IMG/VR virus record: IMGVR_UViG_2684622772_000008
Origin: a virus
Lineage: Duplodnaviria; Heunggongvirae; Uroviricota; Caudoviricetes
Length of the DNA: 4,463 nt
Strand: one strand, 5' to 3'
Part shown: positions 1 to 4,463 of the stretch, one piece after another
Numbering within the stretch: the first letter of the stretch is position 1
Layout of the letters: every line of letters starts with the position of its first letter
Notes under the pieces: generated by a model
Told to the model about the DNA's origin: nothing
Database searches by the model: none
Seen by the model: the letters and a program-made list of their open reading frames with translations, nothing else
Translations under genes and position numbers: made by a program

Positions 1-2
1 TT

Positions 3-753
3 TTCTGCTCATTATTAGCTCCTTCTGATGCCATTCTATTTCAGGAAGGAGTGTCCGTTAAACTCAGGCTACCTCAGGTTATTCGCTTCTGGGCATGGGC
101 GGATCAACAAATGATAGACGGTAATGCAGATTGTAACGCTCGCGGCGTTACAAAAAGTGCAATAGATCGCATCACTTTTATGTCTGGTTTTGCTGATGCG
201 TTAATTCAGGTTGGATGGCTGGTCGAAAATGACGGAGGGCTTTCTCTACCTAACTTTGAACGTCATAACGGAAAAAGCTCTAAAAAAAACGGGCGGTTAC
301 AAACGAGCGAGTAACAAAAATACGCGAACTGAAACGAAAAGGTAACGCTGCCAGCGTTACACAAACGGATCAAAAAGCGTTACCAGAGGAAGAGGAAGAG
401 GAAGATCTAAATACTGATCTCCCCCTCGCCAAAAACGAGCGTCTAAAAAATTCGAGCCGGAGGCTATTGAGCTGCCCGATTGGTTGCCGGAAACACTCTG
501 GCATGAGTGGGTCCGGTTCAGACAGGCATTGCGAAAACCGATTCGAACGGAGCAGGGCGCTAACGGGGCGATACGGGAACTGGAAAAATTCCGTCAGCAG
601 GGTTTTACACCTGAGCAGGTGATTCGACACAGCATCGCCAATGAATACCAGGGCCTGTTCGCGCCGAAAGGTGTTCGGCCTGAGACGTTGCTCCGACAGG
701 TTAACACCGTCTCGTTGCCGGACAGTGCGATCCCGCCAGGCTTCAGGGGGTAA
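3..753 (+). pseudogene. Phage replication/primosomal protein with DnaT-like C-terminal domain; 5' end upstream of window; frame broken twice at poly-A runs
   Basis: Three contiguous coding segments in three + frames. Segment 1 is open from nt 3 to TAA 312-314 (N-terminal domain; the GTG at 51 is probably internal). Segment 2 runs about 290-450 (charged linker, including EEEEEE from (GAGGAA)3 at 386-403). Segment 3 runs 418-753 and ends ...NTVSLPDSAIPPGFRG, matching the DnaT C-terminus as I recall it (...NTVSEPDSQIPPGFRG). Frame switches coincide with A8 at 282-289 and A6 at 445-450. TAA 751-753 lies 6 nt before the DnaC-like start, as in dnaT-dnaC operons. Confidence 0.6.
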
Positions 754-759
754 CGGACC

Positions 760-1186
760 ATGAAAAATATTGCGACAGGCGGCGTTCTGGAACGCATCCG
801 CCGACTGACCCCGCCACATGTAACCGCCCCATTCAGAACGGTAGCGGAGTGGCGCGAGTGGCAACTTGCTGAAGGCCAGAAACGTAGCGAGGAGATCAAC
901 CGCCTGAATCGCCAGTTGCGGGTGGAAAAAATTCTGAATCGCTCAGGCATCCAGCCGTTGCACCGTAAATGCTCGTTTGCGAATTACCAGGTGCAGAACG
1001 ACGGCCAGCGATACGCGTTAAGCCAGGCGAAATCCATCGCCGATGAACTGATGACCGGGTGTACAAATTTTGCGTTCAGCGGAAAACCTGGTACCGGGAA
1101 GAATCACTTAGCGGCAGCTATCGGGAATCGCCTGCTGAAAGACGGTCAGACAGTGATTGTGGTTACCGTGGCTGATGTTATGAGCG
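760..1186 (+). CDS. DnaC-like helicase loader (phage replication protein), N-terminal 142 codons only; 3' part lost in assembly gap
   Basis: ATG 760 with GGGGG at 746-750. The translation aligns along its length with E. coli DnaC as I recall it (NRSGI.PLH..CSF.NY; Walker A GKPGTGK at nt 1081-1101; ...VTVADVMS). The frame runs straight into the N-run at 1187. Confidence 0.88.
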
Positions 1187-1414
1187 NNNNNNNNNNNNNN
1201 NNNNNNNNNNNNNNNNNNNNNNNNNNNNNNNNNNNNNNNNNNNNNNNNNNNNNNNNNNNNNNNNNNNNNNNNNNNNNNNNNNNNNNNNNNNNNNNNNNNN
1301 NNNNNNNNNNNNNNNNNNNNNNNNNNNNNNNNNNNNNNNNNNNNNNNNNNNNNNNNNNNNNNNNNNNNNNNNNNNNNNNNNNNNNNNNNNNNNNNNNNNN
1401 NNNNNNNNNNNNNN
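1187..1414. other. Assembly/scaffold gap (228 N)
   Basis: Uninterrupted run of n characters; true length and content unknown. Confidence 0.99.
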
Positions 1415-1430
1415 AGTTTCAGGAGGATTT

Positions 1431-1853
1431 ATGGCGAAACCTTTTACTCCCGAACAGCGGGAAGAACTGAAGACGCGAATTGTGGAACTCGTGCATCAGG
1501 ACGGTCGGGTCACGATTCGGCAGTTGTCAGATGAAACAGGTATCAGTCGTGCGTCTGTCGGTCGCTTATGCATAGAACTGGTCGCAAGTGGTGATGTATA
1601 TAATTCTGGCTACGGCTTATTCCCGTCTGAACAGGCTCGCAAGGACTGGCAAAGCGCCCGCAAAAAACTCTCGAGAGTAAAGGTGAGGAAACCGGTTGTT
1701 GTTGATCCGGACCTTATCTGGTCATTACCTGACGGAGAAATACGCCGCTACGACAGGCGCCTGAATATAATCTGTCGCGAGTGCCGGAAGAGCGAAGCTA
1801 TGCAGCGTGTACTGGCTTTCTATCAGGGTAATTTTCAGGAGGCGATACTGTGA
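1431..1853 (+). CDS. Hypothetical phage protein with predicted winged-helix/HTH DNA-binding domain (140 aa)
   Basis: AGGAGG 1421-1426, ATG 1431, TGA 1851-1853. Residues ~17-55 (RIVELVHQDGRVTIRQLSDETGISRASVGRLCIELVASGDV) have an HTH-like pattern, followed by a basic C-terminal half. No family assignment from memory. Confidence 0.7.
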   Translation: MAKPFTPEQREELKTRIVELVHQDGRVTIRQLSDETGISRASVGRLCIELVASGDVYNSGYGLFPSEQARKDWQSARKKLSRVKVRKPVVVDPDLIWSLPDGEIRRYDRRLNIICRECRKSEAMQRVLAFYQGNFQEAIL

Positions 1854-1910
1854 ATGAAATTAGCTATCAGGCTTCAATTACCGCTGGCATTCGCATCAAA
1901 GGAGAGGAGC

Positions 1911-2267
1911 ATGGAAATAAAACCAGAAGATGAGTTAAGCAATATCGTTTTATTTCCGGTAAAAGAGGATGACCCTCGTAATCAGGTTAATTTTCTTTAT
2001 GAGCCATCGGAAAGACCATATTGCCATCACGCCTCTGTACGGGTTGACGAAAAAGAGCGTCAGGTCCGCTGTAAAATCTGCGGTGCGGTTGTGGAGCCGT
2101 TTGACTGGATGCTCTCTGTGGCAAAAAGAGAAACCAGACTGGCAGATGATGTAAGGCTATTGCGCCAGGAGGAACAGGAAAGGCGGAGAAATATAGAAAA
2201 GCTGATACAGATTGAGCGTAACGCGAAAGCGCGGATACGCAGGGCGACAAAATCCAGAACTGAATAA
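1911..2267 (+). CDS. Hypothetical zinc-ribbon plus coiled-coil protein (118 aa; 137 aa if started at ATG 1854)
   Basis: ATG 1911 is preceded by AGGAGAGGAG at 1900-1909. An in-frame ATG at 1854 directly abuts the upstream stop (TGAATG, 1851-1856) with AGGAGG at 1837-1842, so the start is ambiguous. TAA 2265-2267. Cys/His cluster YCHHASVRVDEKERQVRCKICG, then an Arg/Glu-rich helical-looking tail. Confidence 0.6.
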   Translation: MEIKPEDELSNIVLFPVKEDDPRNQVNFLYEPSERPYCHHASVRVDEKERQVRCKICGAVVEPFDWMLSVAKRETRLADDVRLLRQEEQERRRNIEKLIQIERNAKARIRRATKSRTE

Positions 2268-2414
2268 TTAAATTTAGCACTGTTAAAAATTTAATCCTTA
2301 ACCGGAGGGATTTCTGCACCCTCAAATCATCAGGAGACCACCCGAAAGGGCGGGGAGCAGTCACACATCTGTTTCCGATAGCCCCGTTCTAATGCTACAC
2401 TCTTTGATATTTTT

Positions 2415-3101
2415 ATGACCCCAATAAACATATTTATGACAGTTGCTGATTTCAAACGGCCCAAATTGGAGCTCCCAAACGGGGCAAACAAACTACTACT
2501 GCACTCTTGCTGTGCTCCATGTTCCGGTGAGGTGATGGAGGCGCTTCAGGCCTCGGGAATCGACTACACCATCTTTTTCTACAACCCGAACATTCATCCT
2601 CAGAAAGAGTATTTAATTCGTAAGGATGAGAATATTCGCTTTGCTGAACAACACGGCGTGCCGTTTATTGATGCTGATTACGACACAGACAACTGGTTTG
2701 AACGAGCCAAAGGAATGGAATGGGAGCCCGAACGAGGGATCCGTTGCACCATGTGTTTTGACATGCGTTTTGAGCGGACAGCGCTGTACGCCGCTGAAAA
2801 TGGTTTCAGTGTGATCAGCAGTTCACTGGGCATTTCACGCTGGAAAAATATGCAGCAGGTTAACGACTGTGGGCGGCGAGCCGTCGCGCATTATCCGGGC
2901 ATGGTGTACTGGGATTATAACTGGCGCAAGCAGGGCGGCTCGTCCCGTATGATTGAAATCAGCAAGCGCGAAAAATTCTATCAGCAGGAATATTGTGGCT
3001 GTGTGTATTCTCTGCGCGATACCAATCTACACCGCAAATCTCAGGGACGCCCTCTTATCAAAATTGGTCAACTCCACTACGGTAAAGAAGAGAAGGAGTG
3101 A
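2415..3101 (+). CDS. queH: QueH-family (DUF208) epoxyqueuosine reductase-like protein (228 aa)
   Basis: The translation contains [32 protein letters not shown] and C-terminal YCGCVYS, the conserved Cys-containing blocks I recognise as the QueH/DUF208 signature. TGA 3099-3101. No clear Shine-Dalgarno before ATG 2415; in-frame ATG 2436 and TTG 2466 are alternative starts. Confidence 0.82.
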
Positions 3102-3122
3102 TTTTATGGGGCACCTTTCTGA

Positions 3123-3152
3123 TTGATTTCATATTGGCGAGGTAAGTAGAAT
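3123..3152 (+). promoter_or_regulatory. Candidate sigma70 promoter of the hok-like mRNA
   Basis: -35 TTGATT at 3123-3128, 18-nt spacer, -10 TAGAAT at 3147-3152. Predicted start near 3159-3162 puts GUGCUUGAGG at the 5' end of the transcript, resembling the 5' end of plasmid R1 hok mRNA as I recall it. Confidence 0.45.
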
Positions 3153-3204
3153 GACTGCGGGTGCTTGAGGCTATCTGCTTCAGGCATGAACACCAAAAGG
3201 CAGA

Positions 3205-3281
3205 TAGAGAAAAGCCCCAGTTAACATTACGCGTCCGGCAAGACGCTTAACATTAATCTGAGGCCAATTTCATGCTTTGCA
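3205..3281 (-). ncRNA. sok: Sok-like antisense RNA (antitoxin of the type I TA locus); ends approximate
   Basis: On the minus strand, -35 TTGCCT (plus coords 3310-3315), 17-nt spacer, -10 TAACCT (plus coords 3287-3292). This has the same position and orientation as the sok promoter in hok/sok loci, overlapping the mok-equivalent start region. The transcript would run leftwards through the 5-bp hairpin GCGUC/GACGC at 3231-3246. The 3' end is not defined by a clean U-tract. Confidence 0.4.
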
Positions 3282-3328
3282 CATGTAGGTTAGCCTCTTA
3301 CATGCCGAAAGGCAAGGAGAAGCAGGCT

Positions 3329-3484
3329 ATGAAGCAGCAAAAGGCGATGTTAATCGCCCTGATCGTCATCTGTTTAACCGTCATAGTGACGGCACTGGTA
3401 ACGAGGAAAGACCTCTGTGAGGTACGAATCCGAACCGGCCAGACGGAGGTCGCTGTCTTCGTAGACTACGAATCCAGGAAGTAA
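3329..3484 (+). CDS. hok: Hok/Gef-family type I toxin (51 aa, single transmembrane helix)
   Basis: AAGGAG 3314-3319, ATG 3329, TAA 3482-3484. Protein MKQQKAMLIALIVICLTVIVTALVTRKDLCEVRIRTGQTEVAVFVDYESRK has a hydrophobic helix and the TRK.LCE.R..G..EVA tail typical of Hok proteins. It is very close to E. coli HokD/RelF as I recall it. Leader and trailer RNA elements are also hok-like. Confidence 0.9.
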   Translation: MKQQKAMLIALIVICLTVIVTALVTRKDLCEVRIRTGQTEVAVFVDYESRK

Positions 3485-3561
3485 GAGTGACCGGGCGGGG
3501 AGCTGATCCCATCCCCGCCCACCTCTGATGTGTCAGGCATCCTCAACGCACCCGCACTTAA

Positions 3562-3604
3562 CCCGCCCATCGCTGTGATCTCTCAGCGTTTCGGCGGGTT
3601 TTTT
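3562..3604 (+). terminator. Rho-independent terminator of the hok-like transcript
   Basis: Stem CCCGCC (3562-3567) pairs with GGCGGG (3593-3598), with inner pairing CGCUG (3571-3575) and CAGCG (3584-3588), followed directly by TTTTTT at 3599-3604. Confidence 0.7.
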
Positions 3605-3624
3605 GTTGTTTATTTCCGGTGAAT

Positions 3625-3652
3625 TTGATTCGCGCACCTTCGCAGATAGAAT
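3625..3652 (+). promoter_or_regulatory. Candidate sigma70 promoter upstream of the 95-aa ORF
   Basis: -35 TTGATT at 3625-3630, 16-nt spacer, -10 TAGAAT at 3647-3652. These are the same hexamers as the hok promoter, and the sequence after the -10 is similar (TAGAATcGACT vs TAGAATGACT). Confidence 0.4.
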
Positions 3653-3733
3653 CGACTCACTTAAGTAGCGCGCAGGGAGAAGAGGGATGGACCCCGAACA
3701 GGGGAGAGCTATTTATCTGGAAGGATTCTGAAG

Positions 3734-4021
3734 ATGAAAATCGAAGAATTGCGTGAAATTTTTAGTGAAAATGGCCTCTATGCTGTGCGCGTTGAGAATG
3801 GAGCGATTGTCAGCCATTGCCGCATTAGATGTTTGCAATCTCAACAAAGGAAGAGCGGTGCTGTGTTATTTTATTTTTGTAATGGACTTCTGACGGACGG
3901 TTTTATTTTGCGTGAGGACGAATTTGTCACATCATTACGGGTTTTGAAAGAGATTGGTTTTAAGGCTGGTTTTCTGCTTTTGCTGAAGAATAAACTCATC
4001 TACAATCTTGAGCAGGATTGA
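3734..4021 (+). CDS. Hypothetical protein (95 aa), unassigned
   Basis: GGAAGGA at 3719-3725 is 8 nt before ATG 3734; TGA 4019-4021. Codon usage looks AT-rich with AGA/AGG Arg codons. No family recognised. Confidence 0.45.
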   Translation: MKIEELREIFSENGLYAVRVENGAIVSHCRIRCLQSQQRKSGAVLFYFCNGLLTDGFILREDEFVTSLRVLKEIGFKAGFLLLLKNKLIYNLEQD

Positions 4022-4059
4022 ACTCCTGCTGTGTAACACCGTGCCACCGGAGAAAGCCG

Positions 4060-4413
4060 ATGGCACATATACAACTGGTCAAACAAACCTCTTCCGGATT
4101 ACTTCTCCCGGCGACGCCGGAGAGTTGCGATTTTCTGCATCAAATCAAAATAGGTGAGTGGATACACGCAGACTTTAAGCGTGTGTGTAACTACGCATTC
4201 CACAAGCGTTTTTTCAAACTCCTGCAACTGGGTTTCGATTACTGGACTCCGGTCGGTGGGGCGATCACGCCTCGCGAACGAAAACTGGTGTCCGGTTTCG
4301 TTGATTACCTGTGTGAATCAGTAGGCCGGGAACATACGCCAGCTCTGAGCGAAGCCGCAGAGCAATTGAGGTGTACTGGCAATAGCGGACACTACCATTT
4401 GTTCTTTTTTTAA
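4060..4413 (+). CDS. Hypothetical protein (117 aa as read); may be 3'-truncated or frameshifted at a T7 run
   Basis: GGAG at 4049-4052 is 7 nt before ATG 4060 (the ORF-track TTG at 4018 is less likely). The protein is MAHIQLVKQ...GHYHLFFF with TAA 4411-4413. The stop follows T7 at 4405-4411, and the adjacent frame is open from 4410 to the window end. Confidence 0.5.
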   Translation: MAHIQLVKQTSSGLLLPATPESCDFLHQIKIGEWIHADFKRVCNYAFHKRFFKLLQLGFDYWTPVGGAITPRERKLVSGFVDYLCESVGREHTPALSEAAEQLRCTGNSGHYHLFFF

Positions 4414-4463
4414 GCAGCCATCTGATGATATTTTTCCCTGAAGGCTGCCGGGGAGATATTCCC

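What the first reader, a model, noticed from the sequence alone, without database searches (positions are those of the whole stretch)
3123..3604. Complete hok/sok-type type I toxin-antitoxin locus inside the prophage
All parts of a hok/sok module are recognisable in the right order: a promoter (3123-3152), a 5' leader starting GUGCUUGAGG with a hairpin (3171-3207), an antisense promoter on the minus strand (3287-3315) aimed at the leader, an SD plus 51-aa Hok ORF (3329-3484), a GC-rich 3' hairpin (GGGCGGGGA 3493-3501 pairing with UCCCCGCCC 3512-3520), and an intrinsic terminator (3562-3604). Unlike the truncated hokD of E. coli K-12, which I recall lacks its upstream region, this copy keeps a full regulatory region. 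Hok/Sok modules are established as post-segregational killing systems and have been reported to interfere with phage T4.
Basis: partly seen in the sequence, partly recalled or inferred. Interest (0 to 1): 0.6.

Follow-up and report, generated by a model that had tools for sequence, protein, structure and literature searches.

The report
Complete hokD-type hok/mok/sok toxin-antitoxin locus
This is an ordinary, sequence-complete copy of the well-known hok/sok "host-killing" toxin-antitoxin module (hokD type), sitting in an IS600-bounded remnant of a lambda-like prophage of a Shigella-like genome. The same kind of locus is already annotated in thousands of E. coli genomes.

Summary
Window 3159-3334 matches the Rfam hok-leader model RF01794 over its full length (117 bits; gathering score 59). 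The 51-aa ORF at 3329-3484 is a full-length Pfam HOK_GEF protein, 90% identical to K-12 HokD.

Every element of the plasmid R1 regulatory model can be placed:
- a hok promoter;
- the 5' tac element, which pairs with a 3' fbi element;
- a metastable 5' hairpin;
- the ucb anti-SD and the dcb box;
- an antisense Sok RNA on the minus strand (3280 to about 3204), whose ends coincide with the annotated K-12 SokB and SokC ends;
- a protective GC hairpin;
- a terminator.

The folding pathway is backed by compensatory changes across 38 distinct loci from six genera.

None of this is new. The identical sequence is annotated hokD in RefSeq. About 39% of complete E. coli genomes carry a leader-containing hokD-type locus, in the listed hits beside the same QueH gene. 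Enrichment of hok in prophages has been published. Whether this copy actually kills cells, stabilises the remnant or blocks phage is untested. Interest is low.

The parts
3123..3152 (+). hok/mok mRNA promoter: -35 TTGATT (3123-3128), 18-nt spacer, -10 TAGAAT (3147-3152)
   Evidence: The consensus scan scores it 9/12. The -10 box lies 7 nt upstream of the conserved mRNA 5' end. Compared with the common hokD allele, a 10-bp deletion has swapped the -35 hexamer.
3159..3604 (+). full-length hok mRNA (about 446 nt), predicted
   Evidence: The 5' end comes from Rfam model position 1 and from the alignment with the R1-type, hokB and hokC leaders. The 3' end comes from the terminator. MFE is -189.6 kcal/mol, z = -8.4.
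3159..3170 (+). tac (translational activator element), GGGUGCUUGAGG
   Evidence: It pairs with fbi in the full-length MFE, with ucb in the open form and with 3177-3187 in the metastable hairpin. Position 4 covaries with two of these partners, fbi and the metastable arm; the tac:ucb helix is conserved but invariant, and U3162 (position 4) is the bulge in it.
3177..3187 (+). 3' arm of the metastable 5' hairpin (3161-3171 with 3177-3187, 11 bp)
   Evidence: It appears in folds of nascent and truncated transcripts. It is 96.4% paired across 38 loci against 30-52% in slid controls. U:A changes to C:G in 13 sequences.
3171..3207 (+).
   Evidence: A 10-bp stem, 3171-3180 with 3198-3207. It is 91.8% paired across loci, and 3 of its pairs show compensatory changes (helix 3).
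3212..3220 (+). ucb (upstream complementary box, the mok anti-SD), AAGCCCCAG
   Evidence: In the full-length fold it pairs with the mok SD region 3258-3264. In nascent and open forms it pairs with tac 3159-3166. The tac:ucb helix is 99.6% paired and invariant (helix 1). Element names follow PMC9841398.
3204..3280 (-). Sok antisense RNA, predicted: 5' end at 3280, 3' end at 3204-3210, about 71-77 nt. It has a single-stranded 5' tail and a long terminator hairpin followed by UUUU.
   Evidence: The annotated K-12 sokC and sokB 5' and 3' ends map to 3280 and 3204. The fold is -30.4 kcal/mol, z = -4.7. The hairpin carries an insertion (16 nt against the Rfam consensus; 18 nt against K-12 hokC) shared with the other hokD-type loci.
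3260..3263 (+). mok Shine-Dalgarno sequence, GAGG
   Evidence: It lies 8 nt upstream of the mok ATG. It is invariant in 38 loci and is sequestered by ucb in the full-length fold.
3272..3484 (+). mok ORF (70 codons), in frame with hok and overlapping it
   Evidence: ORF list. Its ATG aligns with the annotated mokC and mokB start codons. Its first 9 nt are covered by the Sok 5' end.
3287..3315 (-). Sok promoter: -35 TTGCCT (3315-3310), 17-nt spacer, -10 TAACCT (3292-3287)
   Evidence: Read directly from the sequence. It is only a 7/12 match and the scan did not call it. It is placed by the homologous Sok 5' end 7 nt downstream. The core of the -35 is invariant across 38 loci.
3293..3297 (+). dcb (downstream complementary box), GCCUC. 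It pairs with the mok SD (3260-3264) to form the Sok target hairpin.
   Evidence: Seen in the nascent and open folds. The five pairs are at least 97% conserved, and the inner pairs of the hairpin covary (helix 5).
3314..3319 (+). hok Shine-Dalgarno sequence, AAGGAG
   Evidence: It lies 9 nt upstream of the hok ATG. In the full-length fold G3316-A3318 pair with 3473-3475 and the AUG lies in the helix 3327-3334 with 3457-3464.
3329..3484 (+). hok toxin ORF, 51 aa, HokD type
   Evidence: Pfam PF01848 at 81 bits over the whole model, 1-42 of 42. It is 90% identical to K-12 HokD. RefSeq names the identical gene hokD, WP_014532198.1.
3467..3470 (+). UACG motif at the Tyr47 codon, a candidate site for TadA A-to-I recoding (Tyr to Cys)
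   Evidence: TACGAA is invariant in all 38 aligned loci. Editing at the equivalent codon of K-12 hokC, hokD and hokE is reported in PMC12214031. It was not tested here.
3493..3520 (+). GC-rich 3' stem-loop (9 bp), the presumed 3' end of the processed mRNA and its shield against exonucleases
   Evidence: Its role is inferred from the R1 work in PMC9841398. The stem is longer than in the common hokD allele.
3541..3553 (+). fbi (fold-back inhibitory element), CCUCAA-C-GCACCC
   Evidence: A 12-bp duplex with tac, -21.5 kcal/mol. Only 19 of 1000 shuffled 3' UTRs do as well. The same duplex lies 45-56 nt after the stop codon in 36 of the 38 aligned distinct loci. There is a compensatory U:A to C:G change in 12 sequences.
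3560..3604 (+). intrinsic terminator: 8-bp outer stem, 5-bp inner stem, then a U-run
   Evidence: Relative to the common allele (CCCGC-UUCG-GCGGG-UUUU), the loop carries an insertion of about 25 nt.

Best explanation
The region is a sequence-complete hok/mok/sok type I toxin-antitoxin locus of the hokD lineage, carried on a decayed lambda-like prophage. Only the sequence and structure features below were shown here. The dynamics are inferred from the plasmid R1 model.

Proposed mechanism:
1. A sigma-70 promoter (3123-3152) makes a stable mRNA of about 446 nt.
2. During transcription the 5' tac element is held in a metastable hairpin (3161-3171 with 3177-3187).
3. In the finished transcript tac pairs with fbi (3541-3553). 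The ucb anti-SD (3212-3220) covers the mok SD. The hok SD and AUG are also paired. The full-length mRNA can therefore be neither translated nor bound by Sok.
4. Slow 3' trimming back to the GC hairpin (about 3520) removes fbi. Tac then pairs with ucb, and the mok SD moves into the SD/dcb target hairpin (3260-3297).
5. The abundant but unstable Sok RNA (minus strand, 3280 to about 3204) pairs with the mok start region. This blocks mok translation, and with it the coupled hok translation, and exposes the duplex to RNase III.
6. If sok transcription stops, through loss of the DNA or shut-off of host transcription during phage infection, Sok decays first. Mok and Hok are then translated and the 51-aa Hok damages the inner membrane.
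7. A Tyr47 UACG codon suggests that TadA editing could modulate toxicity, as reported for K-12 hokD.
For: - Rfam RF01794 matches over the full model at 117 bits. Pfam HOK_GEF scores 81 bits.
- The full-length MFE contains tac:fbi, ucb:SD, a paired hok SD and AUG, the GC hairpin and the terminator. z = -8.4.
- The metastable hairpin and the tac:ucb and SD:dcb structures appear in folds of nascent transcripts.
- The open conformation of the processed RNA lies 1.6 kcal/mol above its MFE with the 3' end at 3522 (2.7 with 3525).
- Across 38 distinct loci from Escherichia, Shigella, Kluyvera, Citrobacter, Photorhabdus, Erwinia and Pantoea, the full structure is 83.9% paired against 38-44% in slid controls. 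It has 39 pairs with compensatory changes against 14-22.
- The metastable hairpin is 96.4% paired, with coupled U:A to C:G changes.
- Sok's ends and the mok start coincide with the annotated K-12 sokB/sokC ends and mokB/mokC starts.
- Sok folds into a 5' tail plus a terminator hairpin, z = -4.7.
- The locus is colinear with an R1-type plasmid hok/sok.
- RefSeq annotates the identical sequence as hokD.
- The R1 mechanism is taken from PMC9841398.
Against: - No expression or toxicity data exist for this copy.
- The Sok promoter is a weak consensus match (7/12) and the promoter scan did not call it.
- The unconstrained MFE of the processed RNA shows the metastable hairpin rather than the tac:ucb stem.
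- The tail to be trimmed is about 80 nt and includes a stable terminator hairpin, against the 37-40 nt I recall for R1 (from memory). Processing kinetics may therefore differ.
Confidence: 0.85

Rival explanations
1. The locus is complete in sequence but physiologically silent. It is transcribed and held in check, or barely expressed, and gives neither post-segregational killing nor phage defence. This is what was concluded for chromosomal hokA, hokB and hokC. On this view it persists only because it is recent or selfish.
For: - Earlier work found that chromosomal hok loci with full regulatory regions failed PSK and rifampicin activation.
- The surrounding prophage is decaying: it has IS600 at both ends, a truncated DUF1367 gene and a broken replication gene.
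- The Sok promoter is a weak consensus match.
- K-12 hokD mRNA is edited at only 6%.
Against: - Every regulatory element is intact, and compensatory changes across genera indicate continuing selection on the RNA folding pathway.
- The HokD CDS is toxic when overexpressed.
- The three hokD-type paralogues in one Shigella flexneri genome have diverged specifically in the Sok recognition loop. That suggests selection for independent control.
Confidence: 0.3
2. The main role of this copy is abortive-infection defence against superinfecting phages. Phage-induced shut-off of host transcription depletes Sok and releases Hok. On this view stabilisation of the prophage DNA is not the main role.
For: - R1 hok/sok on a high-copy plasmid protected against T4.
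- hok genes are about four-fold enriched in prophages, and prophages often carry defence genes.
Against: - The T4 effect needed a high copy number, and this locus is single-copy.
- The published survey found no enrichment of hok near known defence systems.
- Nothing in the window bears on phage sensing.
Confidence: 0.15
3. The Rfam hit marks a free-standing plus-strand small RNA gene ('sok antitoxin') at 3159-3334, as the family name and the strand of the hit would suggest.
For: The Rfam table lists the hit on the + strand and types it as 'Gene; antitoxin'.
Against: - In K-12 the same model hits the hok strand of the hokC and hokB loci, opposite to the annotated sokC and sokB genes.
- The model spans 157 positions, from the mRNA 5' end to the hok start codon, so it describes the hok leader.
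- The real Sok maps to the minus strand, 3280 to 3204.
Confidence: 0.02

Closest known systems
hokD (relF) of the E. coli K-12 Qin prophage
   Same: - The Hok protein is 90% identical (46 of 51).
- The 3' UTR has the same fbi sequence.
- The same downstream neighbour, rem, is 68% identical at protein level.
- Both lie in a lambda-like cryptic prophage.
   Different: - K-12 hokD is fused 72 nt downstream of relE. It lacks the promoter, tac, ucb, the mok start, dcb, and sok with its promoter, and it gives no RF01794 hit.
- The window copy has all of these.
- The C-terminus differs (VDYESRK against TAYEPEE).
Common prophage-borne hokD-type locus of E. coli (for example IHE3034 and many ExPEC strains), next to QueH
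   Same: - It has the same gene order, QueH then hokD.
- It is about 91% identical over window 3100-3566, including the whole leader.
- It is present with at least 80% coverage in 2130 of 5426 complete genomes.
   Different: - The window allele has a 10-bp deletion that swaps the -35 box.
- It has a longer, perfect GC hairpin.
- It has five C-terminal substitutions.
- It has an insertion of about 25 nt in the terminator loop.
- This exact allele occurs in only 2 of 5426 'E. coli' genomes, both IS-rich and Shigella-like. The identical Hok protein is also encoded in Shigella flexneri SFBU1023 and in 'E. coli' ECMA0423.
hok/sok (parB) of plasmid R1 and IncF plasmids
   Same: - The blocks are colinear: tac, 5' hairpin, ucb, mok SD and ATG, dcb, Sok promoter, hok SD, hok, the UACGAA motif, GC hairpin and fbi.
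- It matches the same Rfam model, at 87 bits.
   Different: - The Hok proteins are much less alike than the window Hok and K-12 HokD; most aligned codons differ (no identity was computed).
- The window Sok hairpin is longer, by 16-18 nt against the Rfam consensus and K-12 hokC.
- The window has a separate terminator hairpin downstream of fbi, so the full-length mRNA is about 446 nt against the 398 nt I recall for R1 (from memory).
- R1 is plasmid-borne and has a demonstrated PSK function.
K-12 hokC/mokC/sokC and hokB/mokB/sokB
   Same: - Their leaders align from the first nucleotide.
- The Sok 5' and 3' ends and the mok ATG map to equivalent positions.
- Rfam scores are 118 and 110 bits.
   Different: - In K-12, IS186 sits 20 nt downstream of hokC. 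No 3' UTR long enough to hold the GC hairpin and fbi (45-56 nt after the stop in other loci) therefore remains.
- In the window the whole 3' UTR is intact.
- They lie in different chromosomal contexts, not in a prophage.

Membership tests
[quoted passage not shown] | A small hydrophobic Hok/Gef toxin (Pfam PF01848) | tested here: met
   81.1 bits (cut-off 22), covering model positions 1-42 of 42.
[quoted passage not shown] | A conserved hok mRNA leader (Rfam RF01794) | tested here: met
   117 bits (gathering score 59), model positions 1-157 of 157, E = 3.9e-27.
[quoted passage not shown] | An overlapping mok reading frame with its own SD, through which hok translation is coupled | tested here: met
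   A 70-codon ORF at 3272-3484 with GAGG 8 nt upstream. Its ATG aligns with the annotated mokB and mokC starts. Translational coupling itself cannot be tested here.
[quoted passage not shown] | A cis-encoded antisense Sok RNA covering the mok translation start, with its own promoter and terminator | tested here: met
   The promoter geometry fits. The K-12 SokB and SokC ends map to 3280 and 3204. The RNA folds into a terminator hairpin followed by a U-run. Actual transcription was not tested.
[quoted passage not shown] | A long-range 5' tac with 3' fbi pairing that closes the full-length mRNA | tested here: met
   A 12-bp duplex at -21.5 kcal/mol. Only 19 of 1000 shuffles do as well. It is conserved in position in 36 of the 38 aligned distinct loci and has compensatory changes.
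[quoted passage not shown] | A metastable 5' hairpin, and alternative tac:ucb and SD:dcb pairings (the refolding pathway) | tested here: met
   The metastable hairpin is 96.4% paired and covaries. Tac:ucb is 99.6% paired but invariant, and SD:dcb is conserved. The open form lies 1.6 kcal/mol above the MFE with the 3' end at 3522. Refolding kinetics cannot be tested here.
[quoted passage not shown] | Hok toxicity, its neutralisation by Sok, and post-segregational killing | not testable with these tools
   This needs induction and plasmid-loss or rifampicin experiments. A K-12 HokD CDS was toxic in published assays.
HokD (RelF) subgroup | High identity to K-12 HokD and shared prophage synteny (rem downstream) | tested here: met
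   90% identity to HokD. The rem homologue at 3734-4021 is 68% identical. RefSeq names the identical gene hokD.

The most novel reading that the evidence does not exclude
The hokD-type module may be the reason this 4.29-kb prophage fragment survives between two directly repeated IS600 copies in a Shigella-like genome. Recombination between the IS copies would delete sok and kill the cell, which would make the module an addiction system for a genomic fragment. The three hokD paralogues in one genome have diverged in their Sok recognition loops. That would let each one guard its own remnant without cross-protection.
Probability: 0.15. Interest if true: 0.4.

Novelty: already known. Interest (0 to 1): 0.12.

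Why it matters
It matters little beyond correct annotation. RefSeq marks only the hokD CDS at this locus, so the mok ORF, the Sok RNA and the mRNA boundaries given here would complete the annotation. The locus could serve as a natural, leader-containing hokD allele for testing two open questions: whether prophage-borne hok/sok modules stabilise prophage remnants, and whether they defend against phage. The published survey leaves both open.

Tried and rejected
1. I first labelled 3272-3284 with 3528-3540 as 'ucb/dcb' and tested tac against 3292-3306 as 'tac-ucb'. That pairing was 87% conserved but showed no covariation. After reading PMC9841398 I saw the partner was wrong. The ucb is the anti-SD at 3212-3220 and the dcb is 3293-3297. 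The test is discarded. The 3272-3284 with 3528-3540 helix is only 58-59% paired across loci (helices 7 and 8), so it is not claimed.
2. The simple promoter and terminator scan found neither the Sok promoter nor either terminator. These elements rest on homology and folding, not on that scan.
3. The unconstrained MFE of the 3'-processed RNA did not give the tac:ucb stem. Only a constrained fold showed it to be nearly iso-energetic.
4. The MAFFT register of fbi is offset by one column between the loci with a bulge and those without. The second half of the tac:fbi helix therefore looks poorly paired. The per-locus duplexes show that it is paired.
5. No other Rfam family matched the window at E <= 1. 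In particular there is no riboswitch upstream of QueH.
6. I did not use the large protein-database searches or structure prediction. They are unnecessary for a 51-aa protein with a full-length Pfam match and an identical RefSeq entry.

Full report
**Observation**

The window was read in full, and every coordinate in the finding checks out to within 2 nt.
- The consensus scan reports the plus-strand promoter TTGATT-18-TAGAAT at 3123-3152.
- ORF listing gives the 51-aa ORF at 3329-3484.
- Rfam family RF01794 ('sok') matches 3159-3334 on the plus strand over its whole length: 117 bits, gathering score 59, E = 3.9e-27. No other family matches the window at E <= 1.
- The 51-aa product is a full-length Pfam HOK_GEF protein at 81 bits.
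- The predicted 446-nt transcript 3159-3604 folds at -189.6 kcal/mol, z = -8.4 against dinucleotide shuffles.

**What the Rfam hit means**

The family is called 'sok antitoxin', but the model describes the hok mRNA leader.
- In K-12 it hits the hokC and hokB loci on the hok strand, opposite to the annotated sokC and sokB genes.
- Aligning those K-12 leaders to the window maps the annotated SokC and SokB 5' ends to window 3280 and their 3' ends to 3204. The mokC and mokB start codons map to 3272.
- Sok is therefore predicted on the minus strand from 3280 to about 3204-3210, about 71-77 nt.
- It folds into a single-stranded 5' tail and a long terminator hairpin followed by UUUU: -30.4 kcal/mol, z = -4.7.
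- Its promoter (TTGCCT-17-TAACCT, minus strand, 3315-3287) is only a 7/12 consensus match and the scan did not call it. Its credibility comes from geometry (the transcription start is 7 nt downstream) and from homology, not from the match itself.

**Regulatory anatomy**

Element names follow the R1 literature (PMC9841398).
- Full-length fold. Tac (3159-3170) pairs with fbi (3541-3553) over 12 bp with one bulge, at -21.5 kcal/mol. The ucb anti-SD (3212-3220) pairs with the mok SD region (3258-3264). The hok SD and AUG pair with 3457-3475.
- Nascent transcripts. These form either the 11-bp metastable hairpin (3161-3171 with 3177-3187), or the tac:ucb stem (3159-3166 with 3212-3218) together with the SD:dcb target hairpin (3260-3264 with 3293-3297).
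- Processed RNA. For an RNA trimmed to the GC hairpin at 3522, the open conformation with tac:ucb and SD:dcb lies 1.6 kcal/mol above the MFE (2.7 with the end at 3525).
- Chance control. Only 19 of 1000 shuffled 3' UTRs give a tac duplex as stable as the real one.

**Comparative support**

A scan of one genome per species returned 47 related loci.
- The genera are Escherichia, Shigella, Kluyvera, Citrobacter, Photorhabdus, Erwinia and Pantoea.
- Most of the leaders align from the very first nucleotide.
- 36 of the 38 distinct loci later aligned have a tac:fbi duplex 45-56 nt after the stop codon.

On an alignment of 38 distinct mRNAs (A2):
- The full-length structure is 83.9% paired against 38-44% when partners are slid. 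It has 39 pairs with changes on both sides against 14-22 in the slid controls.
- Tac position 4 changes U to C together with fbi (A to G, 12 sequences) and with its metastable partner (A to G, 13 sequences).
- The metastable hairpin is 96.4% paired against 30-52% in slid controls.
- The tac:ucb stem is 99.6% paired but invariant, so it neither adds nor removes support.

These structures were derived from the window sequence itself. That inflates 'cells paired', but the compensatory changes do not depend on it. An R1-type IncFII hok/sok locus aligns colinearly block by block and matches the same Rfam model at 87 bits.

**Context**
- The identical 541 bp occurs in two IS-rich 'E. coli' genomes, where the CDS is annotated hokD (WP_014532198.1). 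It lies between QueH and a rem-like gene in a lambda-like prophage that has Rha, cI/Cro-like, YdaT, O-like and DnaC-like replication genes, DUF977, DUF1367, DUF1364, DUF1133, tRNA, holin, RrrD and terminase genes.
- The identical Hok protein is also encoded in Shigella flexneri SFBU1023.
- About 2130 of 5426 complete E. coli genomes carry a roughly 91%-identical locus that includes the whole leader. In the listed hits it lies beside QueH.
- Phage records annotate it as 'host killer protein', 'MokW-like' or 'gef: phage maintenance protein'.
- In this window the prophage is a fragment. Positions 1-76 and 4367-4463 match the two ends of an annotated IS600, in the same orientation. The DUF1367 gene is cut at 4366 (Pfam positions 1-102 of 198), and the O-like gene is split.

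**K-12 comparison**

K-12 hokD lies 72 nt after relE. Its homology with the window starts at the hok SD (about 3316) and continues through fbi. The K-12 region gives no RF01794 hit. The proteins are 90% identical, and the downstream gene in both is rem.

**Mechanism and function**

Sequence and structure support the canonical R1 pathway. The full-length mRNA is closed. Trimming of the 3' end opens it. Sok then blocks mok and hence hok translation and triggers cleavage. When Sok is no longer made, Hok is released. All the dynamic steps are inferred from R1.

What the module does here is open.
- R1 hok/sok stabilises plasmids and, at high copy number, protects against T4.
- hok genes are about four-fold enriched in prophages, with unknown function there.
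- Chromosomal hokA, hokB and hokC loci failed post-segregational killing tests.

A further layer is possible. The Tyr47 codon lies in an invariant UACGAA motif. The equivalent codon of K-12 hokC, hokD and hokE is recoded to Cys by TadA, at low levels (6% for hokD). That Cys is implicated in a disulfide needed for toxicity in HokB.

**Differences from the common allele**

Four differences were seen:
- a 10-bp deletion upstream of the -10 box that brings in a different -35 hexamer;
- five C-terminal substitutions;
- a longer, perfect GC hairpin;
- an insertion of about 25 nt in the terminator loop.

All four preserve the functional geometry.

**Verdict**

The finding is correct and carefully observed, but it describes an already known and already annotated kind of locus. 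Novelty: already known. Interest: low.

Noticed in passing
window 1-76 and 4367-4463: Both ends of the window are ends of IS600. They match L001 36-111 and 1203-1299, which flank and overlap the annotated IS600 transposase CDS, and they lie in the same orientation. The prophage DNA at 77-4366 is therefore a 4.29-kb segment between two directly repeated IS600 copies. The right-hand copy truncates the DUF1367 gene, and the left-hand copy truncates the replication O-like gene.
   Followed up: partly
window 1187-1414: A run of 228 N (masked or unresolved sequence) lies inside the DnaC/IstB-like replication gene (ydaV homologue, ORF from 760).
   Followed up: no
window 3467-3472: The Tyr47 codon of hok lies in a UACGAA motif that is invariant in all 38 aligned hok loci from six genera. 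This is the TadA recognition motif. Tyr-to-Cys mRNA editing at the equivalent codon is published for K-12 hokC, hokD and hokE.
   Followed up: partly
window 3272-3285, and L005, L010 and L012 (Shigella flexneri SFBU1023): One S. flexneri genome carries three hokD-type loci. Their leaders are nearly identical except in the Sok target loop and Sok 5' tail (CTTTGCAC, CTGAACAC and TCTCACAA). That pattern suggests the paralogues have diverged to avoid cross-talk.
   Followed up: partly
window 2415-3101: An intact epoxyqueuosine reductase QueH gene (Pfam PF02677, 220 bits) lies just upstream of hok inside the prophage. The QueH-hokD pair is seen in all but one of the 25 E. coli genomes listed. No riboswitch or other Rfam family was detected upstream of it. 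A tRNA-modification enzyme carried by a lambda-like prophage is unexplained here.
   Followed up: no
window 3625-3652 and 3734-4021: A second promoter-like site with the same hexamers as the hok promoter (TTGATT-16-TAGAAT) lies just after the hok terminator. It lies upstream of a 95-aa homologue of K-12 Rem (68% identity), a protein of unknown function that also follows hokD in the Qin prophage.
   Followed up: partly
window 51-753: The replication O-like (ydaU-type) gene is split into two ORFs (51-314 and 484-753), whereas the related locus L001 has a single 783-nt CDS. It is probably a frameshifted pseudogene, consistent with prophage decay around an intact hok/sok module.
   Followed up: no
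window 3159-3334, Rfam RF01794: The Rfam family named 'sok antitoxin (CssrC)' is oriented along the hok mRNA leader, not along Sok. Its hits lie on the strand opposite to the annotated sokB and sokC genes in K-12. Automated annotation based on it would place 'sok' on the wrong strand and make it about 100 nt too long.
   Followed up: yes
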